A stretch of 20,000 nucleotides of DNA from an uncultured virus (IMG/VR IMGVR_UViG_3300029305_003094) (taxonomy: Duplodnaviria; Heunggongvirae; Uroviricota; Caudoviricetes), in IMG/VR virus record IMGVR_UViG_3300029305_003094. One strand, given 5' to 3'. The notes under the pieces are model-generated. The model had not been told where the DNA came from. It did not search any database and worked only from the letters and a program-made list of their open reading frames with translations. The position numbers were made by a program, and so were the translations under genes. Positions 3,144-19,800 of this stretch are shown here, one piece after another (position 1 is the first letter of the stretch; every line of letters begins with the position of its first letter).

Positions 3144-4217
3144 CTAAACATAATGTATTGAGGTGAGTCTATCGTGCGAATACTCAAACAGCTGGAATCT
3201 CTTGTGGTTGCCAACATAGCCGTTTTTGCTATGCCAAGCATCTGTTTTGTTCCCTGTTGACAATCTCCGCACAACCACACCACTCTCATCACCATCTTTA
3301 ATTTCGGTGTGCAAATGCCCCAGATGGATTTCCCTTGTTTTTGAATGTGCAAACTCAAGAGGAAACTCTATCGTAAACTGGCACCGTATATCCTTTGGCG
3401 AGGTTCTCCCATCATCGCAATGTCCATATCCAATGAAAATGTCATGCCAATGGATGCACTTTCTCGGCTCTCTAGAATCATCAAAGGTGATTTGCTCACC
3501 AAACACCTCTTTCAACACTTCAAAGAAGAACCAGCCAGTTGTTTCATCGTGGTTGCCTTCGCTATAATGCACTCGAACATCATCGCAACATTGCTTTGCT
3601 TTTCTTAATATGCTGAAATACATCTGTCTTGCATCAGCATATGCCTTTTCCATGTCCACTTGTTGTATTGGTGTACCCTTTGCGGTTTTACCCCTAAAAT
3701 CGTTATTATGGAACAAGTCCTGACCGATAATAACTTGAATGCACTCCCATTTTTTGCTTTCGATAATCACCAAGATGCGGTTTAAGGTTTCCTTGTAGTA
3801 TTCAATGTCATTTATACCGAAATGCACATCGAATAAGGGAATTTCAAGCATCCCTTCAGGAGCATCCGTTTTGATAGGCTCTATATATTCAACCTTGGGA
3901 AGTTGTTTTGCGATTTCGATGAGTCTTTCAAGGTTTTCTCGTTCTGCTGTTTGCTTAATCCAACATTGAATAACATTTCCCTTGCCGTCAACCTGAACCG
4001 TTGCACCATGAGGAGTAAACCCTTTATAAGTGCCAGAATTCAAGGTGAGTTCATCCGCATAGGTTTTTTTCTCCCACTTGTTCAATGACCTTCTAAAAGA
4101 TGCAAAAGATTGACCACTATGCTGTTTTTTGAAAAAGTCATTGTATATTTCCCTAGAGGATAAACCTTGCTTTGCAAGTTCAACGCATTTCCGCTTTGTT
4201 TCCAGGTCAATCTTCAC
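3144..4217 (-). CDS. Calcineurin-like metallophosphoesterase with N-terminal HTH-like region
   Basis: Motifs DVHFG, GQDLFH, GNHD, GHC, HLGHLH. Confidence 0.85.
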   Translation of the reverse strand: MKIDLETKRKCVELAKQGLSSREIYNDFFKKQHSGQSFASFRRSLNKWEKKTYADELTLNSGTYKGFTPHGATVQVDGKGNVIQCWIKQTAERENLERLIEIAKQLPKVEYIEPIKTDAPEGMLEIPLFDVHFGINDIEYYKETLNRILVIIESKKWECIQVIIGQDLFHNNDFRGKTAKGTPIQQVDMEKAYADARQMYFSILRKAKQCCDDVRVHYSEGNHDETTGWFFFEVLKEVFGEQITFDDSREPRKCIHWHDIFIGYGHCDDGRTSPKDIRCQFTIEFPLEFAHSKTREIHLGHLHTEIKDGDESGVVVRRLSTGNKTDAWHSKNGYVGNHKRFQLFEYSHDRLTSIHYV

Positions 4218-12627: not shown

Positions 12628-13215
12628 TCAATTCTCCTTCAAATAATCGTTTATAACCTCGTCAACGAGGTTTTCATTGATGGGGATGTCAATGTACTTC
12701 CGCACATCGTTTCTAAGGTGTACACCCCTTAAAAAGTCGATTTTGGCACAATAGCATTGTTGGTATGCAACCCTGTACAAGTTCAACTGGTAGGTCAGGT
12801 ATTTCTTGTCCAAGGTGGATGTCCGCTTGATGTCACCCAAGCCGATGCAATCCTTTTCCACCAACACAAGGTCAAGTCTGCCACAAGCCACCGCTTCGCC
12901 ATCCTTGAAAAGCACCACAGGCACTTCGTTGTCCAGACAATCAAAGTTGTATGCCTTCTTCAGGAATTTCCAGTTCCGCAGTTCTGGAAGGTCGGTTTCG
13001 ATGCCTTCTCTTTCAAAGTCCTCGATAGCTTTGTGAACCGCTGTCCCTTGTTCAGCTGCACGATGCAAGGTTGCCTTTGGGATGCCGTCATACTTGCCAC
13101 CAAACTTGCACTTGAGAAGCTGGGTGATGGAAGGGAGTACAATGCCGTCACACAGATAGGTGTGTGTTTCGTCTATGTATTCCAGCACACCGCCATTGAT
13201 TTCCCATTGCTCCAC
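12628..13215 (-). CDS. PD-(D/E)XK exonuclease (lambda-exo/Cas4-like superfamily)
   Basis: PSITQLL, GTAVHKAIE, GRLDL, DIKRT, QLNLY; GTG start 13215. Confidence 0.85.
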   Translation of the reverse strand: MEQWEINGGVLEYIDETHTYLCDGIVLPSITQLLKCKFGGKYDGIPKATLHRAAEQGTAVHKAIEDFEREGIETDLPELRNWKFLKKAYNFDCLDNEVPVVLFKDGEAVACGRLDLVLVEKDCIGLGDIKRTSTLDKKYLTYQLNLYRVAYQQCYCAKIDFLRGVHLRNDVRKYIDIPINENLVDEVINDYLKEN

Positions 13216-13219
13216 CGAA

Positions 13220-13924
13220 TCACCCCCATTGTTCTGCCATTGCTTTCGCAATGCCCTCGAATGTTTTGCTTCGTGCTTTCTGTCTGTTTCCATCTACGGT
13301 CTTGTTGTACCAATCAGAAAAACGCACAGTTTTTCCCGCATTTTTACCTCGCTTTATCACAAATTCCCTCATATCTTCCACTCCTACAACTTGGGTGGGA
13401 ACCAGGGGAGAGAGTCCTTTCAGCCATAGACAAGTTTTTTTGCTTTGAGGATGTCCGTATTCGTATGGCTGAATGATTTGTGTCGGTTTCTTTGGCAATC
13501 CGTACCTCTCGGCAAGGTCAGGGAAGTAGGCTTGTACATACTCACCGCTGATGACACCAACAGGATTCTCTATTGCGATTCGGTCACAATCCGCATTCAA
13601 GAATTGGCAGAAGAATTCAATGCCTTCTCGTTGCCTTCCGTCTGCTCTCTTTTTATCAAAATGTCTTGCTCCGCTGACAGCCAGGTGGGTGCAAGGGGGG
13701 AAGGCAATAATCATATCCCACTTGCCCAGGATGTTGTGTTCTTCTCCATCACTAGTTACGAATTCGCAATAGCCATTCAGCAACGGCAACACATCACCTT
13801 GAATGTGCCACTCTGGATGCCCACCGCTACAAGGGATAATGTCGCAGCTGAATGCGTTGTGTCCTTTCTCTCTAAAAGCGGAACATACTCTCTGCGATTC
13901 CTCGCAAGCAACTAATACATTCAT
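13220..13924 (-). CDS. DNA cytosine methyltransferase-like protein (atypical)
   Basis: Catalytic FPPC and IENP motifs; motif I replaced by VACEES; short. Confidence 0.7.
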   Translation of the reverse strand: MNVLVACEESQRVCSAFREKGHNAFSCDIIPCSGGHPEWHIQGDVLPLLNGYCEFVTSDGEEHNILGKWDMIIAFPPCTHLAVSGARHFDKKRADGRQREGIEFFCQFLNADCDRIAIENPVGVISGEYVQAYFPDLAERYGLPKKPTQIIQPYEYGHPQSKKTCLWLKGLSPLVPTQVVGVEDMREFVIKRGKNAGKTVRFSDWYNKTVDGNRQKARSKTFEGIAKAMAEQWG

Positions 13925-14398: not shown

Positions 14399-15043
14399 TC
14401 AATTCTCCTTTTTCTTTAATTTGCCAATCAGTTTGCTTGCCTTTGCCATGCTGATGTCCTCGATGCGATCCACACCATTCGCCTTCAGCAACTTGGTCAG
14501 GTTCTCGCCTGTGTAGACCTTCGCCAGGATTTCAATCTGCTTCGCTGTTGCCTTGCGGTCATCTCCTGTGGCGGTTGCTTTGGTGTACTTTGCGGTGTCA
14601 GGACTATGCTCTTGGTCAGGATCTTCGCCTGTGATGATTTTGTATGCCTTGAGCAATGCGTACTTGTCTGCGTAGGTCATTGCCTTGCCAACCGCCTTGT
14701 CCTGTGTGTCGATGCCGTCACCGTAGGTGGTGATTTCGATGTACTCTTCAGGATTCTCGATATTCACAAAGCGGTAAATGGTTTCGATACGAAGAAAGAT
14801 TTGGTTGCCCTTGGTCACATTGCCGTTGTATTCCTTCTCGGTTTCCAAGATGGCTCTGTCGATGACCTCTCGCTTGCAAGGATAGGAGTACACCTTATAC
14901 TTCTGCTCCAACTGCTTAACGGCAAAAAGTACATCCGCTTCACCGACAGCCTTGTAGGAGTTCTTGCCGATGCCCACCTCAAGGTTCTTGCTGACATTCT
15001 TGATTTCGCTTGTGATGCTCAACAGCTTTTCGTAGATGTTCAT
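14399..15043 (-). CDS. ERF-family single-strand annealing protein
   Basis: MNIYEKL..., DKAVGKAMTYADKYAL, GEDPD. Confidence 0.88.
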   Translation of the reverse strand: MNIYEKLLSITSEIKNVSKNLEVGIGKNSYKAVGEADVLFAVKQLEQKYKVYSYPCKREVIDRAILETEKEYNGNVTKGNQIFLRIETIYRFVNIENPEEYIEITTYGDGIDTQDKAVGKAMTYADKYALLKAYKIITGEDPDQEHSPDTAKYTKATATGDDRKATAKQIEILAKVYTGENLTKLLKANGVDRIEDISMAKASKLIGKLKKKEN

Positions 15044-15058
15044 TCAATTCACCCCCTT

Positions 15059-15355
15059 TCAAATGGTGCGGACTAGACCGCCCACACGGACTCCAGCAAC
15101 CCAACCGAACACAGATGTAATGCCCACAGCCAGACCGCCATCCACCATGAGGTTTCTGCTTGCGATGCCGAACGCAAAACCGATGACGATGAAGCCAAGC
15201 ACCCAGCAGACAATCTCGGTGACAGAGCGGACTCTCCGTGCCTTTCTCCGCTCAATCCACTTTTGGGCATCCTCGGCAAACTTAGCTTCTCTGGATGCAT
15301 CGGCATTGCCGTTGACGGCATTAATCATTTCTCTTTCAAAAGCATTGTTGTCCAT
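15059..15355 (-). CDS. Hypothetical two-TM membrane protein
   Basis: Hydrophobic C-terminal half; RBS GAAAGGA. Confidence 0.7.
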   Translation of the reverse strand: MDNNAFEREMINAVNGNADASREAKFAEDAQKWIERRKARRVRSVTEIVCWVLGFIVIGFAFGIASRNLMVDGGLAVGITSVFGWVAGVRVGGLVRTI

Positions 15356-15370
15356 TGTTCTGTTCCTTTC

Positions 15371-15577
15371 TTATTCGCCACGCATGGCTTTGATAAACGG
15401 TCTTTTGGGGATTCGCACCCTAGATCCCATCCTGATGACAGGGAATGGGAAGGGATTCTTTCCGTCCCTTGTTGCCACATTGATGGAATATGGTGTGCAT
15501 CCAAGAATCGGTGCAATGTCCGCTGGCACAAGCATTTCCTTCGGCAACCGCTCAAGTTCTTGCAATGTCATCTGCAT
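15371..15577 (-). CDS. Excisionase-like winged HTH protein
   Basis: LVPADIAPILGC...FPVIRMGSRVRIPKRPF. Confidence 0.7.
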   Translation of the reverse strand: MQMTLQELERLPKEMLVPADIAPILGCTPYSINVATRDGKNPFPFPVIRMGSRVRIPKRPFIKAMRGE

Positions 15578-15681
15578 CACTCCTGTTCCTGTTTCAGCAT
15601 TTGGTAGATGAAGGACAAGGTGTCAATGTCGGTGAGGTTGTCAATCATTGCCTTGACTTCATTCTTGATTTCGTCAACCAT
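15577..15681 (-). CDS. 34-aa acidic amphipathic peptide (putative antirepressor, lytic copy)
   Basis: MVDEIKNEVKAMIDNLTDIDTLSFIYQMLKQEQE; RBS GAAGGAG at 9 nt; TGATG coupling to the next gene; paralog of 17597-17710. Confidence 0.75.
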   Translation of the reverse strand: MVDEIKNEVKAMIDNLTDIDTLSFIYQMLKQEQE

Positions 15682-15702
15682 CTTCGTCATCTCCTTCGAG
15701 TT

Positions 15703-15721
15703 TGATTCATTAAAAGGCTCT
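15703..15721. promoter_or_regulatory. Operator copy O3 downstream of cro
   Basis: TGATTCATTAAAAGGCTCT, 16/19 match to the reverse complement of O1. Confidence 0.6.
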
Positions 15722-15930
15722 TAATTCGCAAAAAAAACGGCTCTTTCTTCATCGGCTTCGCTGATGCCCAACTCGATGCACAGGATGCGTACTTGCTCAT
15801 AAGTAAACTTCGCAATGTTGTTCTTGCAGTTGTTGAAGCCTTGTCTGGATAGGTTGCACACCTTGGCAAGGTGTCCTTTCTTCTTGCCACTATCCTGAAT
15901 CTTCTGTTCCAGTAGTTCGGTATTTACCAC
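15721..15930 (-). CDS. Cro-like XRE HTH protein
   Basis: SGKKKGHLAKVCNLSRQGFNNCKN...FTYEQVRILCIELGI. Confidence 0.85.
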   Translation of the reverse strand: MVNTELLEQKIQDSGKKKGHLAKVCNLSRQGFNNCKNNIAKFTYEQVRILCIELGISEADEERAVFFAN

Positions 15931-15942
15931 TTTGTCACCCCC

Positions 15943-16722
15943 TTAAAACAATCTATAATTTAATGGTTGCTCTAACATTTCCCAGCGGAACACCCTGTCA
16001 TCTGGTGATAAAAGACCATCATCCTCAAGTTGAAATCTTCTGTCATAGTCACGCACCGTGTGTCCGTTTGGTTTGAACACCACAGGACTGTCTTCATCCC
16101 ACTTCAACAACATCATCCAATATTCTGGATAATTTCTTCGTAGTAAACGCAACTGTTCCACACCTTGGTTGTGGCAGAACCAACAACCACCCCTTGTTGC
16201 AGTTGTGTAAATCGGTGACAACAAACCGTTTTCCTCGCACCATTGTCGGCACTTTGCTTCCGTCCATCCAGCTTCGACAAGAGGCAATCTCATATTTGGT
16301 TTTTGTATGTGCCGTTCGATCCGTTTTGGTTCATCAGCTGCGATCCCCACCAAAGAAACAACACCTTTGTTCATCTTGTCCATAATATTGGTTTTTAACT
16401 TCCCCACACACCAGTTTCTTCTCTGCATTGGGAAGCCATTTATCACACCAGCATACTTTGCCTTTTCACCTCTTTTTTTGTAAAAGTAGGATTCGTATGT
16501 ATACTCGCTCCTGATGTGTTCCACACGAAGACCGTATCTCTGCAAGATTATCTCGTCAGCTTTTTTCTTAAACTCAACCATAGGTGGCAATTCCGCTGGG
16601 ATGGTATCCGTTGCCCATACTTCTGCATGAACAATTCGGTCAATCGGCAACCCCAGTTCTTCAGCTGCACCAAGACAAGCAAGGCTGTCTTTGCCGTAAC
16701 TAAGGCTTAAAACATTTTCCAC
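15943..16722 (-). CDS. PAPS reductase-family (PP-loop) protein
   Basis: SYGKDS PP-loop, RNWC, GIAADE, RGGCWFC; GTG start with RBS AAAGGGGGTG. Confidence 0.85.
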   Translation of the reverse strand: MENVLSLSYGKDSLACLGAAEELGLPIDRIVHAEVWATDTIPAELPPMVEFKKKADEIILQRYGLRVEHIRSEYTYESYFYKKRGEKAKYAGVINGFPMQRRNWCVGKLKTNIMDKMNKGVVSLVGIAADEPKRIERHIQKPNMRLPLVEAGWTEAKCRQWCEENGLLSPIYTTATRGGCWFCHNQGVEQLRLLRRNYPEYWMMLLKWDEDSPVVFKPNGHTVRDYDRRFQLEDDGLLSPDDRVFRWEMLEQPLNYRLF

Positions 16723-16821
16723 ATCATCACCCCCTTTCGTTGGTTGGCGGTTGGCTGTTTGAATTGTGACCATCTGCCTGTCCGCATTACCATCCCCCAT
16801 TTGGTGGATGTCACTCTGCGA

Positions 16822-17016
16822 TTATTTCAGTTCATCAAGGACAGTTGCCTTTATCACACATATCTCTGCAATGTGGACAAGATTTCTCCAATGCTCCTCA
16901 TGGCTGGATGACCAATCGTCTGCGTGGTCATGCAAGTACCGACACGCAAGGTCAAGAGCATTCTTTCCGTTCTTGATGTACTGTGCTTTCTTAGCCTCGA
17001 TTTCGTTTCTGTTCAT
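16822..17016 (-). CDS. 64-aa hypothetical protein, first gene of the lytic operon
   Basis: MNRNEIEAKK... with RBS GAAAGGAG. Confidence 0.7.
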   Translation of the reverse strand: MNRNEIEAKKAQYIKNGKNALDLACRYLHDHADDWSSSHEEHWRNLVHIAEICVIKATVLDELK

Positions 17017-17062
17017 GGTTGTTCTCCTTTCAAAATCCAAGTTGCTTGTAGCCTTTTTCGCT

Positions 17063-17143
17063 TGAGCCTTTAAATGGCTCATTGTGGCTAAAAAAATAAG
17101 TAAGCTGTCGATGTGGTTCTTTGGTGAGCCTTTTAATGGCTCA
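17063..17143. promoter_or_regulatory. Two 19-bp palindromic operators (O2 17063-17081, O1 17125-17143)
   Basis: TGAGCCTTTAAATGGCTCA and TGAGCCTTTTAATGGCTCA, 62 bp apart. Confidence 0.8.
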
Positions 17144-17148
17144 GGCAA

Positions 17149-17178
17149 ATACTATCATACCGTGTCGATATTTGTCAA
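17149..17178 (-). promoter_or_regulatory. Early lytic promoter
   Basis: TTGACA(17178-17173)-18 bp-TAGTAT(17154-17149) with TGn extension; O1 lies over +1. Confidence 0.7.
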
Positions 17179-17205
17179 TAGGTATTTTAATATTTTTCAA
17201 AGAAA

Positions 17206-17236
17206 TGTTGATTTTAATGAATCAAGGTGATACAAT
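17206..17236 (+). promoter_or_regulatory. Repressor promoter with degenerate operator O4 over the -35
   Basis: TTGATT(17208)-17 bp-TACAAT(17231) with TGn; TGTTGATTTTAATGAATCA at 17206-17224. Confidence 0.7.
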
Positions 17237-17260
17237 GATGGCAGAAAGGATGTGATTCAC

Positions 17261-17620
17261 ATGGCAAACATGACCGTGGCAACCAGAATCAAAGACAGGA
17301 GAAACGAATTGGGATGGTCGCAAAGAGAATTGGCATCTAGGATGGGATATGCCAGTAACACTACCGTTGCCAAGATTGAACAGGGCAAGGTGGATGTTTC
17401 TCAGGCTCGTCTGGAACACTTCGCTGAAGTTCTCGGTGTTTCTGTTGCTTACCTGATGGGTTGGGAGCAGATTCAAAAAAAGAATGACCAACTGGTCAAG
17501 CTGGTCATTCGCATGAGAAGGGATGAAAGATTTGCCGAAGCCGTCAAGATGCTTGACGAATTGGATGCAGACAAGTATGAGAATGTGTTCCAGATCCTAT
17601 CCGCATTCACTCAAAAGTAA
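17261..17620 (+). CDS. XRE-family prophage repressor without S24 peptidase domain
   Basis: RIKDRRNELGWSQRELASRMG...AKIEQG...LGVSVAYLMGW plus a ~50-aa helical tail; divergent from the lytic operon. Confidence 0.9.
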   Translation: MANMTVATRIKDRRNELGWSQRELASRMGYASNTTVAKIEQGKVDVSQARLEHFAEVLGVSVAYLMGWEQIQKKNDQLVKLVIRMRRDERFAEAVKMLDELDADKYENVFQILSAFTQK

Positions 17621-17710
17621 TTTGTGGACGAAGTCCAGTAGTTCAAAGTCTGTGATGCGGTCAAGTAATTCATAAATTTCTTGCTTGATTTCAACTGCGT
17701 TAATTTCCAT
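17597..17710 (-). CDS. 37-aa SOS-controlled peptide (putative antirepressor)
   Basis: MEINAVEIKQEIYELLDRITDFELLDFVHKLLLSECG; RBS GGGGGT; own promoter with LexA box; tail-to-tail overlap with the repressor. Confidence 0.75.
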   Translation of the reverse strand: MEINAVEIKQEIYELLDRITDFELLDFVHKLLLSECG

Positions 17711-17748
17711 TGAATGTACCCCCATAGGCTTAATGATTCAAAACTATC

Positions 17749-17797
17749 CAAACATCTGTTCTATTTCAAGGATAAGCTATTGCGACAAAGTTGTCAA
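17749..17797 (-). promoter_or_regulatory. Promoter of the 37-aa peptide with LexA box at +1
   Basis: TTGACA(17797-17792)-17 bp-TATCCT(17774-17769); CAAAC-ATCT-GTTCT at 17749-17762. Confidence 0.75.
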
Positions 17798-17838
17798 TAT
17801 TTCGACACGATTTTTGCTCTATGTAAATGTTACCAATG

Positions 17839-17852
17839 CGAACAACTGTTCG
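17839..17852. promoter_or_regulatory. Gram-positive LexA/DinR SOS box
   Basis: CGAAC-AACT-GTTCG matches CGAAC-N4-GTTCG. Confidence 0.8.
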
Positions 17853-18003
17853 ACTAAAACATACCACTCGATATGTCCAATAGATTGGACTTTAAATGAA
17901 TGTGGGGGAGAAAGCTGCCAACTGTCCACCCCCACACCGCTGGGTGATAGGCTGTTTCCAACCTGATAAAAGCCTATCATTTCGCCACCCAAAAATCAAC
18001 ACT

Positions 18004-18140
18004 CACAACTGATGGTTTTTGCATAACATATGTTACACCAATGCACACAACTGATGGAATTTTAACACATCTGTGCATTCGCATATCATATCTGTGCAGT
18101 TCTGTAACACATCGGTGCATTTTACTATCACAACTGATGA
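18004..18140 (+). repeat. Phased array of six ~12-bp direct repeats (~21-bp period)
   Basis: CACAACTGATGG 18004 and 18046, CACATCTGTGCA 18066, CATATCTGTGCA 18087, CACATCGGTGCA 18108, CACAACTGATGA 18129. Confidence 0.85.
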
Positions 18141-18155
18141 AATGAGAGGTTAACT

Positions 18156-18680
18156 ATGCCATTTTCAACTGAAACACTTGAAGAGAAACCCCATAACATT
18201 TGCATTAGCTGTCCACGCATCGGTCAAACTTGTGACGGTCCCAATTTCTTGGCAATGTCCGTGGAGCGGTGGTGTGAATGGTGTCGGCTTAGAAGGGACT
18301 ATTTGGGATGGAAAAACCAAAATGTCGCAGATAAGGCAAATGTGTCCAGGATGTCAGTTGACCGAATTATGGCTTGTGATGTAAAAGATTTGCGTATCAC
18401 TACAATGCAAGCTGTCACGAAGGCATTGGTGAACGGATCGTGGGGACAATCTCCTTGTGTCCTAGTTACAGAAACCGAAAAGGAAATTTATGTGGATAAT
18501 CCAGTTATCGTTGCCCAATGCCAACACTTGCAGAACACTCTTGATGCGATGGTAGAAGAAAACAAGCGAGATATGGCATCCGTTCGTGAGGAATCACAGA
18601 AAAAGATTGACTTCCTCATGGAGCAAATCACCATCAAGGATAAGCAAATAGAATGGATGTTCTCACTCAGGAAGGAATGA
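18156..18680 (+). CDS. Cys-motif + XRE-like HTH + coiled-coil protein
   Basis: CISC..C, RRDYLGWKNQNVADKANVSRMSVDRIM, C-terminal heptads; RBS GAGAGGT. Confidence 0.8.
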   Translation: MPFSTETLEEKPHNICISCPRIGQTCDGPNFLAMSVERWCEWCRLRRDYLGWKNQNVADKANVSRMSVDRIMACDVKDLRITTMQAVTKALVNGSWGQSPCVLVTETEKEIYVDNPVIVAQCQHLQNTLDAMVEENKRDMASVREESQKKIDFLMEQITIKDKQIEWMFSLRKE

Positions 18681-18684
18681 TTGA

Positions 18685-19800
18685 ATGTTATGCCGTAAGT
18701 GTAAAAAGGAAATTCCAGACGGCTCAAAGTTCTGCAACTTTTGCGGAATCAAACAGGACTATGAGAAGGCAAGCAAGAAAAGAGGAAATGGTCAAGGCAC
18801 CGTATACAAAGATAAAAACGGCAAATGGATTGCTGAGTACACCATCGGCTGGGACATCGAAACCGAAGACAACAAACTAAGCCGTAGGAAACGCAAAAAA
18901 AGAGGCTTCGCCACAAAGAACGAAGCCATTGCCTATCTGCCAAACCTAAAGCAAGATTTGCCACAACAAGATATGAATGTAAAGTTCAAGGACTTATACA
19001 AAAAATGGCTAGATGGGCATACCGAAAAGGTAACGCAATCCACCATCAACTGTTATAAATCAGCTTATAAGTATTTCTCCACCCTTTACTATGTGGAGAT
19101 ATCCAAAATCCGCACGGAACATCTGCAAAAGTGCATCGATGAATGCCCACACGGAAAGCGAACCAAAGAGAATATGAAAGCCTTGGGGACATCCCTGTGG
19201 AAATACGCAATGCAACTCGACATAGTGGACAGAAACTATGCAGAGTACATATACATCAAGAAGGAAGATTCAGCCGAAAAGATTGCGTTCTCCACAGAAC
19301 AACTCCAAGCCATGTGGGAGAATGTTGAAAAGCACCCAAACCTCAAATATGTACTTGTTCTCTGTTATACTGGAATGCGTTTGACGGAAATGCTTGAAGC
19401 AATGACAGAAAACTACAACCCCACAGATGGATATTTCATCACAGGAATAAAAACAGCTGCTGGAAAGAATCGTATCATTACCATATCACCAAAGATTAGA
19501 CCATTCTTTGATGACTTCGGCACAGGCAAGCACCTCTTCACCGAATTGTCTGCGAAGAAGTTCAGGAGCGAGATATACTACCCAGCACTTCAGGCATTGG
19601 ATTTAGATCCAATCAAAGAAGATGGAACACACATCAACACTCCTCACATCTGTCGGCACACCTTCGCCACATTGATGAAAAATGTGGATGCTCCAGCCAC
19701 AGACAAGCAGAAACTGATTGGTCATTCTAAGTTTGAAATGACCGCCCATTATACCCATACAGACCTCGGCTCATTGAAGAAAATCACGGATAATCTCTAA
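18685..19800 (+). CDS. int: Tyrosine integrase with N-terminal zinc ribbon
   Basis: CRKC...FCNFCG, RGNGQGTVY arm-binding region, YTGMR, KT, HICRHT, LIGH, TAHY. Confidence 0.95.
   Translation: MLCRKCKKEIPDGSKFCNFCGIKQDYEKASKKRGNGQGTVYKDKNGKWIAEYTIGWDIETEDNKLSRRKRKKRGFATKNEAIAYLPNLKQDLPQQDMNVKFKDLYKKWLDGHTEKVTQSTINCYKSAYKYFSTLYYVEISKIRTEHLQKCIDECPHGKRTKENMKALGTSLWKYAMQLDIVDRNYAEYIYIKKEDSAEKIAFSTEQLQAMWENVEKHPNLKYVLVLCYTGMRLTEMLEAMTENYNPTDGYFITGIKTAAGKNRIITISPKIRPFFDDFGTGKHLFTELSAKKFRSEIYYPALQALDLDPIKEDGTHINTPHICRHTFATLMKNVDAPATDKQKLIGHSKFEMTAHYTHTDLGSLKKITDNL

What the first reader, a model, noticed from the sequence alone, without database searches (positions are those of the whole stretch)
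15577..17710. A second paralog of the putative antirepressor lies right behind cro: trigger-and-lock switch
Seen: the unannotated 34-aa ORF at 15681-15577 (EIKNEVKAMIDNLTDIDTLSFIYQMLKQE) aligns without gaps to the SOS peptide (EIKQEIYELLDRITDFELLDFVHKLLLSE). Identity is 11/29, and many other positions are conservative substitutions. It sits in the repressor-controlled lytic operon, between operator O3 and the xis-like gene to which it is translationally coupled. Inference: the SOS copy starts derepression, and the lytic copy gives positive feedback that commits the switch. The lytic copy may also bias new infections toward lysis or cross-induce related prophages. I do not know of a described two-paralog peptide circuit of this kind.
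Basis: partly seen in the sequence, partly recalled or inferred. Interest (0 to 1): 0.85.

Follow-up and report, generated by a model that had tools for sequence, protein, structure and literature searches.

The report
Two mini-antirepressor peptide paralogs in prophage
A gut-Clostridia prophage carries two related 34-37-residue peptide genes, one switched on by DNA damage beside its repressor and one inside the early lytic operon, which look like tiny repressor-blocking proteins of a kind only recently described in Bacillus phages.

Summary
ORFs 15681-15577 (34 aa) and 17710-17597 (37 aa) align 11/29 without gaps (BLASTP E 7e-8). None of 3000 shuffles that keep the hydrophobic pattern reached the score.

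Both belong to a family of about 35-aa helix-loop-helix peptides: 113 clusters at 50% identity, no Pfam family.

In 13 of 18 other loci, including C. difficile phage phiCD38-2 gp38/gp39, a member is convergent with the 3' end of a short XRE repressor with no peptidase domain and a conserved helical tail. A LexA box lies upstream in 10 of 13 such genes scanned. An antisense terminator sits inside the repressor ORF in 9 of 14.

This matches the AimX-AimC module (bioRxiv 10.1101/2025.11.23.689978), without arbitrium.

The lytic copy is a real gene. It has an RBS, overlaps the start of the xis-like gene, and has a repressor operator 3 nt upstream of its RBS. It is missing from two close relatives with the same xis-like gene (L004, L007). 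It falls in a different clade from the SOS copy.

Its role as a positive-feedback lock is plausible but untested. Action on related repressors is a live rival. Binding was not shown.

Verdict: a new variant of a known kind.

The parts
15577..15681 (-). Lytic-operon copy of the mini-peptide (34 aa; alternative start at 15690 gives 37 aa)
   Evidence: ORF and sequence. RBS AAGGAGAT lies 8 nt upstream. Family profile score 63.7 bits. phrog_19640 E 1.1e-4. AF2 predicts a helix-loop-helix (H2-14, H19-33) with pLDDT 92. The identical protein occurs on 17 contigs.
15703..15721 (.). Operator-like site O3 between the cro-like stop and the lytic peptide RBS
   Evidence: Matches O2 in 16 of 19 positions. 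The window has 3 such sites, against 0 expected in shuffles.
15721..15930 (-). cro-like / AimL-like small regulator (69 aa)
   Evidence: 51% identical (E 4e-22) to the first lytic gene, divergent from the repressor, in L023. Only weak HTH-family hits.
15371..15580 (-). xis-like gene; its start overlaps the lytic peptide stop
   Evidence: GTGATG overlap. phrog_66 excisionase E 0.032, weak. The same gene occurs in L004 and L007 without the peptide, and homology starts at its RBS.
15943..16800 (-). PAPS-reductase-like gene inside the early operon
   Evidence: phrog_424 E 2.3e-36.
16822..17016 (-). First early ORF (64 aa from ATG 17016), function unknown
   Evidence: ORF with RBS AAAGGAGAA. No family hit.
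17063..17143 (.). Operators O1 (17063-81) and O2 (17125-43), 19-bp palindromes just downstream of the early promoter (-35 at 17178)
17261..17620 (+). Repressor: XRE HTH plus a three-helix C-terminal tail, no peptidase domain (119 aa from ATG 17261)
   Evidence: Pfam HTH_3 E 9e-13 and no other domain. AF2 pLDDT 85, tail helices at 69-86, 89-98 and 103-117. The tail is conserved across three different HTH types.
17482..17510 (-). Terminator-like hairpin plus U-run for the SOS peptide transcript, inside the repressor ORF on the antisense strand
   Evidence: An equivalent hairpin occurs in 9 of 14 paired loci, with different stem sequences.
17597..17710 (-). SOS-side copy of the mini-peptide (37 aa), convergent with the repressor gene and overlapping its last 24 nt
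   Evidence: dN/dS against L004, L006 and L007 is 0.07-0.74.
17749..17852 (.). Promoter region of the SOS peptide: perfect LexA (Cheo) box at 17839-52, imperfect box at 17749-62, TTGACA-17-TATCCT at 17797-17769

Best explanation
**Proposed mechanism**
- Both ORFs encode members of one family of about 35-residue acidic helix-loop-helix phage peptides. I read them as AimX/SinI-type mini-antirepressors.
- The copy at 17710-17597 is held off by host LexA.
- After DNA damage it is transcribed as a short message that ends at a terminator inside the repressor gene.
- The peptide then binds the C-terminal helical tail of the peptidase-less XRE repressor. This breaks up the repressor oligomer and frees operators O1/O2.
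- The early operon then runs through orf64, the PAPS-reductase-like gene and the cro-like gene into the second copy at 15681-15577.
- In the lysogen the second copy is doubly shut, by O1/O2 and by O3 immediately upstream of it.
- Once made, it keeps repressor tails occupied. These may be the phage's own (a lock that no longer depends on SOS) and/or those of related phages that share the tail.

**Shown**
- Homology of the two peptides, gene anatomy, LexA boxes, operators, the terminator, and conserved synteny.

**Inferred**
- Antirepressor activity, the tail as the target, and the feedback role of the second copy.
For: **Homology**
- establish that the two peptides are related.
- The family has 113 clusters at 50% identity with E <= 1e-3, nearly all 31-62 aa.

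**Synteny and repressor type**
- In 13 of 18 loci outside this phage the peptide gene is convergent with, and abuts or overlaps, an XRE gene of 117-141 aa. All 13 hit HTH families, and no peptidase family was listed at E <= 0.001.
- phiCD38-2 gp38 lies next to gp39, annotated 'CI phage repressor'.

**SOS control**
- GAAC-N4-GTTC with at most 1 core mismatch lies upstream of 10 of the 13 repressor-convergent genes scanned. In six loci a perfect core sits 23-28 nt before the start. None was found upstream of the lytic copy or of four members in other contexts. The background rate for a perfect core is 0.04 per 300 nt.

**Link to the repressor tail**
- Peptide identity tracks repressor-tail identity (r 0.86; 0 of 5000 Mantel permutations as high). 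It tracks the HTH domain far less (r 0.40). Among the distant loci alone the values are 0.73 and 0.18.
- The same tail and peptide go with three unrelated HTH types.

**Selection and structure**
- dN/dS of the SOS copy is 0.07-0.74.
- The peptide and the last two tail helices are both helix / 4-residue loop / helix.
- The best profile-profile match of the peptide family to the repressor falls on exactly those helices.
- The top Foldseek hit of the repressor model is SinR in the SinR-SinI complex.

**Published precedent**
- AimX of phage phi106 is a 29-aa ORF just downstream of a LexA site. It overlaps aimC by 30 bp in antisense and acts as a protein. SEC-MALS (phi106 and BMBtp14) and two-hybrid (phi106) show an AimC-AimX heterodimer in place of the AimC oligomer, and AlphaFold models place AimX on the AimC C-terminal oligomerisation domain (10.1101/2025.11.23.689978, sections 6, 7, 9, 10, 11 read).
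- The window repressor aligns over 97% of its length, at 27.8% identity (tblastn E 1e-4), with phIS3501 gp49. That gene sits convergent to an AimR gene (Pfam AimR, 82 bits).

**The lytic copy**
- It has an RBS, a stop-start overlap with the xis-like gene, and O3 3 nt upstream of its RBS.
- P0093 shows the same position behind a cro-like gene, judging by its upstream reading frame.
- A copy that works away from any repressor overlap suggests the product, not an antisense RNA, is the active part.
Against: **No direct evidence of binding or activity**

**Weak peptide-to-tail similarity**
- hhalign gives E 0.055 and 0.037, with probability about 1%.

**Linkage confound**
- The peptide/tail correlation is confounded by physical linkage, because the two genes overlap.

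**The lytic copy is dispensable**
- L004 and L007 have the same xis-like gene and 78-92% identical SOS peptides but no second copy.

**The lytic copy may not be cognate to this repressor**
- It sits in another clade, which also holds phiCD38-2 gp38.
- It is 32-38% identical to the SOS copy. Peptide pairs 30-45% identical go with tails of median 31% identity.
- In a probable second lineage the SOS peptide is 81% identical to this phage's and the repressor tail region 88% identical, but the lytic-type peptide only 47%. That these three proteins share a contig is inferred only from equal contig lengths.

**Other contexts**
- Five of 18 loci place family members elsewhere. Two of them (L010, L020) lie next to Mu-F-like head genes.

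**No sequence link to AimX**
- The phIS3501 AimX candidate is not a sequence relative (3 bits).
Confidence: 0.5

Rival explanations
1. The lytic copy is an antirepressor aimed at other phages' repressors, not its own. Made early in infection or after induction, it would inactivate repressors of co-resident or resident heteroimmune relatives that carry a matching tail. That would mean cross-induction or escape from immunity, while only the SOS copy is cognate to this phage's own repressor.
For: - The lytic copy lies in a different clade from the SOS copy, together with phiCD38-2 gp38, which sits in the repressor-convergent position.
- Its distance from the SOS copy is typical of peptides paired with tails only about 31% identical.
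- The tail-plus-peptide module is shared among phages with three different HTH specificities, so action in trans is conceivable.
- The lytic copy is absent from close relatives, as expected of an accessory weapon.
- Trans-acting antirepressors that couple prophages are known (PMC3121763, abstract seen in the search listing).
Against: - No target repressor has been identified.
- O3, a copy of this phage's own operator, sits directly upstream. That fits a role in the phage's own switch at least as well.
- The specificity of these peptides is unknown.
Confidence: 0.22
2. The SOS-side element acts mainly as RNA. LexA-controlled convergent transcription gives an antisense RNA over the last ~45 codons of the repressor message, and the peptide is secondary. 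The lytic copy would then have an unrelated role, for example with the xis-like or cro-like protein.
For: - The convergent overlap is conserved, and a terminator inside the repressor ORF occurs in 9 of 14 paired loci. This gives a defined overlap of about 110-140 nt.
- The lytic copy overlaps the start of the xis-like gene.
Against: - The peptide sequence shows purifying selection.
- It belongs to a family of 113 clusters with a conserved amphipathic pattern.
- A paralog exists with no antisense partner (this finding).
- The terminator stops transcription well before the repressor promoter.
- In phi106, recoded and stop-codon alleles showed that the protein, not the antisense RNA, is the effector (10.1101/2025.11.23.689978, section 7).
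Confidence: 0.1
3. The peptides act on something other than the phage repressor, for example host LexA (as GIL01 gp7 does) or another host protein. The position next to the repressor would reflect only shared regulation.
For: - Small phage proteins that bind LexA exist (PMC4551915, abstract seen in the search listing).
- Five of 18 loci have members with no adjacent repressor.
Against: - Peptide identity tracks the repressor tail.
- Synteny holds in 13 of 18 loci.
- The architecture matches AimX-AimC.
Confidence: 0.1

Closest known systems
AimX-AimC module of 'extended' arbitrium phages (Kabel et al., bioRxiv 10.1101/2025.11.23.689978; sections 6, 7, 9, 10, 11 read)
   Same: - A tiny ORF (29-80 aa) is convergent with, and sometimes overlaps, the 3' end of a short HTH repressor that has a helical C-terminal oligomerisation domain.
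- In phi106 a LexA site lies just upstream of the ORF.
- A cro-like gene is present.
- The window repressor aligns over 97% of its length with an AimC-position protein of phIS3501.
   Different: - No aimR or aimP here; control appears to be by LexA alone.
- The host is a gut Clostridia lineage, not Bacillus.
- The peptide family is not a detectable sequence relative of the phIS3501 AimX candidate.
- In the sections I read, no second copy in the lytic operon is described.
- That paper reports very few close AimC/AimL homologues outside arbitrium systems.
SinI-SinR of Bacillus subtilis
   Same: - An XRE-type HTH repressor with a C-terminal helical hook, antagonised by a small helical protein that takes the place of the partner's hook.
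- The SinR chain of 1b0n is the top Foldseek match of the repressor model (E 2.8e-4, 118 columns).
   Different: - A chromosomal biofilm switch, not a phage.
- SinI is 57 aa (recalled) and clearly homologous to the SinR tail. Here the peptide-tail similarity is only suggestive (E 0.04-0.06).
- No LexA control.
LexA-controlled antirepressors: Sar of SPbeta-like phages (10.1101/2025.11.27.690993; abstract and passages read), Gifsy antirepressors (PMC3121763; abstract in listing), Tum of phage 186 (recalled)
   Same: The repressor does not cleave itself. SOS acts by de-repressing a small antirepressor gene.
   Different: - Sar is about 100 aa, dimeric, mimics DNA, and targets an integrase-fold repressor.
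- These are unrelated proteins and none is 34-37 aa.
Mor of TP901-1 / phi13 (PMC11149083 and PMC7250872; abstracts seen in the search listing)
   Same: An antirepressor is encoded in the repressor-controlled lytic transcript, so its synthesis follows derepression and reinforces it.
   Different: - From recall, not from the abstracts: Mor is an HTH protein of about 70 aa that binds the CI N-terminal domain.
- It is not a paralog of an SOS-controlled trigger.
phiCDKH01 pair of KilAC antirepressor paralogs under XRE control (PMC11172241; passages read)
   Same: Two paralogous antirepressor genes lie in one repressor-controlled region of a Clostridioides phage.
   Different: - Large KilAC-domain proteins, 79% identical to each other.
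- Both lie in the lytic region. Neither is an SOS-controlled trigger.

Membership tests
AimX-AimC type mini-antirepressor module | Small ORF (29-80 aa) convergent with, or overlapping, the 3' end of the repressor gene | tested here: met
   The SOS copy overlaps the repressor gene by 24 nt. The same arrangement occurs in 13 of 18 other loci.
AimX-AimC type mini-antirepressor module | Repressor is a short HTH protein without a peptidase domain and with a helical C-terminal oligomerisation domain | tested here: inconclusive
   HTH_3 is the only domain type found, and three C-terminal helices are predicted. Oligomerisation itself was not tested.
AimX-AimC type mini-antirepressor module | Lies downstream of aimR-aimP | tested here: not met
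   Between the integrase and the peptide there is only a 174-aa ORF with no Pfam hit. The phIS3501 control does show AimR.
AimX-AimC type mini-antirepressor module | Peptide binds the repressor and blocks its oligomerisation and DNA binding | not testable with these tools
   Needs reporter, two-hybrid, SEC-MALS or EMSA assays.
AimX-AimC type mini-antirepressor module | Sequence relationship to a described AimX | tested here: not met
   The phIS3501 candidate AimX scores 3 bits against the family profile. AimX proteins are reported to be highly divergent, so this says little about mechanism.
LexA-controlled antirepressors | LexA operator in the promoter of the antirepressor gene | tested here: met
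   There is a perfect CGAAC-N4-GTTCG at 17839-52 and an imperfect box at 17749-62. Boxes occur in 10 of 13 relatives scanned. The consensus itself is recalled (Cheo box).
SinI-SinR | Antagonist is homologous to the repressor's own C-terminal helices | tested here: inconclusive
   hhalign places the peptide on tail helices 92-115, but with E 0.055 and 0.037 and probability about 1%. BLASTP of the lytic copy against the repressor gives E 0.033.
phrog_19640 (function unknown) | Significant match to the profile | tested here: inconclusive
   Lytic copy E 1.1e-4, SOS copy E 0.058. Only 3 of 82 family members match at E <= 0.01.

The most novel reading that the evidence does not exclude
This is a two-paralog mini-peptide switch. 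A LexA-gated 37-aa antirepressor fires the switch. A repressor-gated 34-aa paralog then makes induction independent of continued SOS signalling. The second copy travels as a cro-O3-peptide cassette. Because the peptide/tail module is shared among heteroimmune relatives, it can also de-repress their prophages. More broadly, LexA-gated peptides of about 35 aa, with a terminator embedded antisense in the repressor ORF, would be a general induction device of Clostridia phages, including C. difficile phiCD38-2.
Probability: 0.3. Interest if true: 0.72.

Novelty: new variant of a known kind. Interest (0 to 1): 0.55.

Why it matters
- Many prophages of gut Clostridia have short repressors that cannot cleave themselves, and how DNA damage induces them is mostly unknown.
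- This locus and its relatives point to a compact answer: a LexA-gated peptide of about 35 residues next to the repressor. The mechanism so far tested only in Bacillus arbitrium phages would then extend to uncultured gut phages and to a cultured C. difficile phage (phiCD38-2 gp38/gp39).
- The second copy in the lytic operon offers a simple test of whether such switches contain a built-in lock or a cross-induction arm.
- The antisense terminator inside the repressor ORF is a clear case of one DNA stretch serving both a protein motif (QKKND...) and an RNA structure.
- These genes are usually unannotated, so the family profile could improve annotation of prophage switches.

Tried and rejected
- **Complex prediction** of repressor plus SOS peptide, both given as alignments: no verdict (score 0.02, controls not run). 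It is neither for nor against binding.
- **RNA runs** for 15300-18000: none was listed.
- **DNA similarity to cultured phages**: no match.
- **tblastn of the SOS peptide against phages**: no match. The lytic peptide gave only E = 7 hits. One of them led to phiCD38-2 gp38, which I then supported by profile (18.5 bits) and synteny.
- **ESM Atlas**: no usable hit.
- **PDB sequence search with the family profile**: nothing below E 0.09.
- **Pfam on 82 family members**: 0 families.
- **Earlier findings of this scan**: nothing.
- **Collection scans with the peptide profiles** returned few loci:
  - viral contigs: 2 loci and 1 locus
  - genome contigs: 1 locus
  - metagenome contigs: 3 loci
- **Genome samples** had low hit rates: 11 of 401 (order), 5 of 400 (class), 2 of 401 (family).
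- **Hits I set aside as not family members**: L015 and L017 (inside proteins of 622 and 546 aa), L019 (97-aa ORF) and L025 (end of a 121-aa ORF).
- **RNAalifold on a MAFFT alignment of the nine terminators** was uninformative because the hairpins were put out of register.
- **Ideas considered and dropped**:
  - Secreted signal peptide or RiPP leader: there is no signal sequence, and most members end right after the second helix.
  - Spurious ORF: ruled out by the family, the RBS and the gene overlap.
Full report
**Setting.** The window is the immunity and early region of a prophage of an uncultured Clostridia host.
- The nearest genome locus with a family member is an Oscillospiraceae MAG.
- No whole genome is held for the window.

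Gene order, right to left:

| Coordinates | Strand | Feature |
|---|---|---|
| 18685-19800 | + | tyrosine integrase |
| 18156-18680 | + | 174-aa ORF with no family hit |
| 17710-17597 | - | the 'SOS' peptide |
| 17261-17620 | + | XRE repressor, convergent with the peptide and overlapping it by 24 nt |
| 17017-17260 | . | divergent promoter region |
| 17016-16822 | - | early operon: 64-aa ORF |
| 15943-16800 | - | PAPS-reductase-like gene |
| 15721-15930 | - | cro-like gene |
| 15681-15577 | - | the 'lytic' peptide |
| 15371-15580 | - | xis-like gene |
| 15059-15355 | - | 98-aa ORF with no family hit |
| 14399-15043 | - | Erf |

**The observation.** It is confirmed.
- The two peptides align 11/29 without gaps (BLASTP E 7e-8).
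- None of 3000 full shuffles reached the observed score. Neither did any of 3000 shuffles that keep the hydrophobic/polar pattern.
- Intermediates exist, for example P0058.
- The most likely starts give 34 and 37 aa, each with a Shine-Dalgarno sequence 8 nt upstream.
- The operator O3 is real. The window has three matches to the 19-bp palindrome, against none in 200 shuffles.
- O3 lies in the 30-nt gap between the cro-like stop and the peptide's RBS.
- The peptide's stop overlaps the start of the xis-like gene.

**The family.**
- A profile of the two types found 113 clusters (50%-identity representatives) at E <= 1e-3 among 1.84 billion proteins. Nearly all are 31-62 aa.
- Two long hits (899 and 154 aa, with repeated short stretches) were left out of my alignments.
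- None of 82 members hits Pfam, and 3 of 82 hit phrog_19640.
- The consensus is roughly [LI]K..I.E......D..LLD[LF]IYKLL..E.
- AF2 folds the lytic copy as helix (2-14), a 4-residue loop, helix (19-33), with pLDDT 92.

**Where family members sit.** Outside this phage I could read 18 loci.
- In 13 the peptide gene is convergent with, and abuts or overlaps, a gene for a 117-141-aa protein. These are L004, L006, L007, L008, L005/L009, L011, L013, L014, L018, L023, L024, L026 and phiCD38-2.
- All 13 neighbouring proteins hit HTH_3-type families, and no peptidase family was listed at E <= 0.001.
- In phiCD38-2 the pair is gp38 (31 aa, 'hypothetical') and gp39 ('CI phage repressor').
- The other five:
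  - L016: a repressor tail lies 1.1 kb away.
  - L010 and L020: next to Mu-F-like head genes.
  - L012 and L028: other contexts.

**The repressor tail.** The repressors share a C-terminal tail, QKKNDQLVKLV.R.R.D.RFAEAVKMLDELDADKYENV.QILSAFTQK in this group.
- It is recognisable in all the paired loci, while the HTH domains differ.
- Between the window and L004, the HTH domain is 29% identical, the tail 89% and the peptide 76%.
- Peptide identity tracks tail identity (r 0.86; 0 of 5000 permutations as high). It tracks the HTH domain much less (r 0.40).
- Because the genes overlap, linkage alone could produce this correlation.

**SOS control.**
- The window has a perfect CGAACAACTGTTCG at 17839-52. 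It is the only zero-mismatch match in 20 kb.
- An imperfect box lies at 17749-62, just downstream of a TTGACA-17-TATCCT promoter.
- Of the 13 repressor-convergent genes scanned, 10 have GAAC-N4-GTTC with at most one core mismatch upstream. Six have a perfect core 23-28 nt before the start codon.
- Nothing was found upstream of the lytic copy or of four members in other contexts.
- In the printed phiCD38-2 sequence I see by eye a box with one core mismatch.
- The LexA consensus itself is recalled knowledge.

**An embedded terminator.**
- In 9 of 14 paired loci a 9-12-bp hairpin followed by a U-run lies 72-93 nt after the peptide stop, on the peptide's strand, inside the repressor ORF. In the window it is at 17482-17510.
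- The stems differ in sequence but stay paired.
- The U-run and one arm are the antisense of the conserved QKKND codons.
- The SOS transcript is therefore short. It overlaps only the tail-coding part of the repressor message and does not reach the repressor promoter.

**What it most likely is.** The anatomy matches the AimX-AimC module described in a 2025 preprint. In the preprint:
- AimX of phi106 is a 29-aa ORF just downstream of a LexA site and overlaps aimC by 30 bp in antisense.
- Recoded and stop-codon alleles show that the protein is the effector.
- SEC-MALS (phi106 and BMBtp14) and two-hybrid (phi106) show an AimC-AimX heterodimer in place of the AimC oligomer.
- AlphaFold models place AimX on the AimC C-terminal oligomerisation domain.
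- The authors compare this to SinI-SinR (10.1101/2025.11.23.689978, sections 6, 7, 9, 10, 11).

The window side is consistent with that picture:
- Its repressor aligns over 97% of its length with phIS3501 gp49 (27.8% identity; tblastn E 1e-4).
- gp49 lies convergent to a gene with a Pfam AimR domain (82 bits). An AimP-like ORF and an unannotated 41-aa ORF lie between them.
- The window's repressor model has three C-terminal helices.
- Its top Foldseek hit is SinR in the SinR-SinI complex.
- The peptide profile aligns best to the last two tail helices, though weakly (E 0.055 and 0.037).

The differences:
- There is no aimR/aimP here.
- There is no detectable sequence relation to the phIS3501 AimX candidate.

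I therefore file the SOS copy as working like AimX, not as a member of an AimX family.

**The second copy.**
- It is a real gene: family membership, an RBS, overlap with the next gene, conservative variants (P0047, P0050, P0062), and the identical protein on 17 contigs.
- It is transcribed only with the early operon. No promoter-like site was found on its strand in the cro-to-peptide gap.
- It has a copy of the repressor's operator 3 nt upstream of its RBS.
- That fits an element that must be tightly off in the lysogen and that reinforces derepression once the operon opens.
- Mor of TP901-1 is a precedent for a lytic-transcript antirepressor (PMC11149083, PMC7250872; abstracts only).

Evidence that tempers the 'lock' reading:
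- L004 and L007 carry the same xis-like gene and 78-92% identical SOS peptides but no second copy.
- Homology with the window begins exactly at the RBS of the xis-like gene. So cro-like + O3 + peptide behaves as an exchangeable cassette.
- P0093 shows the same cassette in another lineage, judged from its upstream reading frame.
- In the tree, the KQEQE-tailed group, which I labelled by that sequence tail, clusters together (93/84 support). It includes phiCD38-2 gp38, which sits in the repressor-convergent position.
- The two copies are thus not a recent local duplication.
- The lytic copy is as diverged from the SOS copy as peptides that pair with tails only about 31% identical.
- So it may act on other phages' repressors. 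I give the 'own lock' and 'foreign target' readings roughly 0.3 and 0.2 within an overall 0.5 that it is an antirepressor of tail-bearing XRE repressors.

**Limits.**
- Binding was not shown.
- The single complex job gave no verdict and no RNA run was listed. Both are reported only as tried.
- DNA for most lytic-type relatives could not be reached.
- Supplementary files of the two preprints were not seen. They may list AimX sequences or second copies.

**Literature.**
- My four answered searches found no description of two paralogous mini-peptide antirepressors with one SOS-gated and one repressor-gated.
- phiCDKH01 has two KilAC antirepressor paralogs, both under XRE control (PMC11172241, passages).

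**Verdict.** This is a new variant of a known kind, with interest 0.55.

Noticed in passing
window 17482-17510 (-); L004, L006, L007, L008, L009, L011, L014, L023: An intrinsic-terminator-like hairpin plus U-run lies on the antisense strand inside the repressor ORF, 72-93 nt after the peptide stop, in 9 of 14 paired loci. The stems differ but stay paired. The element is encoded opposite the conserved repressor motif QKKND, so that DNA stretch is under double constraint.
   Followed up: partly
window 17997-18680: A 174-aa ORF (18156-18680, +) lies between the integrase and the SOS peptide and has no Pfam hit. It is preceded by three 21-nt-spaced direct repeats (18063-18136) and two copies of CACAACTGATGG (17997-18062). 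Similar proteins sit at the same place in L007 and L024. It may be a second regulator with its own operators.
   Followed up: no
L010, L020 (G196 contig 70), L012, L028: Family members also occur away from repressors. Two lie next to Mu-F-like head-morphogenesis genes and two in other contexts, all without a LexA box. One genome (G196) has two copies 20 kb apart: one in the LexA/repressor position and one in a late-gene region.
   Followed up: partly
proteins P0065, P0095, P0115, P0120, P0122, P0124: Some family members carry a 10-15-residue C-terminal extension ending in ...VLFGG, ...VLVSG, ...LILCG or ...IVLCG. Its meaning is unknown.
   Followed up: no
L030 (NC_019502.1 phIS3501), locus 3339-3464 (-): An unannotated 41-aa ORF with a strong RBS lies between an AimP-like ORF and the AimC-position repressor gp49. 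It is a candidate AimX and is not a sequence relative of the family studied here.
   Followed up: partly
proteins P0069, P0023, P0182: A lytic-type peptide, an SOS-type peptide and a 119-aa repressor are each listed with 2 contigs and a longest contig of 4437 nt. They probably share a contig, which would be a second lineage with both copies. The DNA could not be fetched.
   Followed up: no
window 15943-16800 (-) and 13220-13924 (-): A PAPS-reductase-like gene (phrog_424, E 2e-36) sits between the early promoter and the cro-like gene. Further along the operon lie a DNA methyltransferase (phrog_757, E 4e-60), Erf (14399-15043) and an exonuclease (12628-13293).
   Followed up: no
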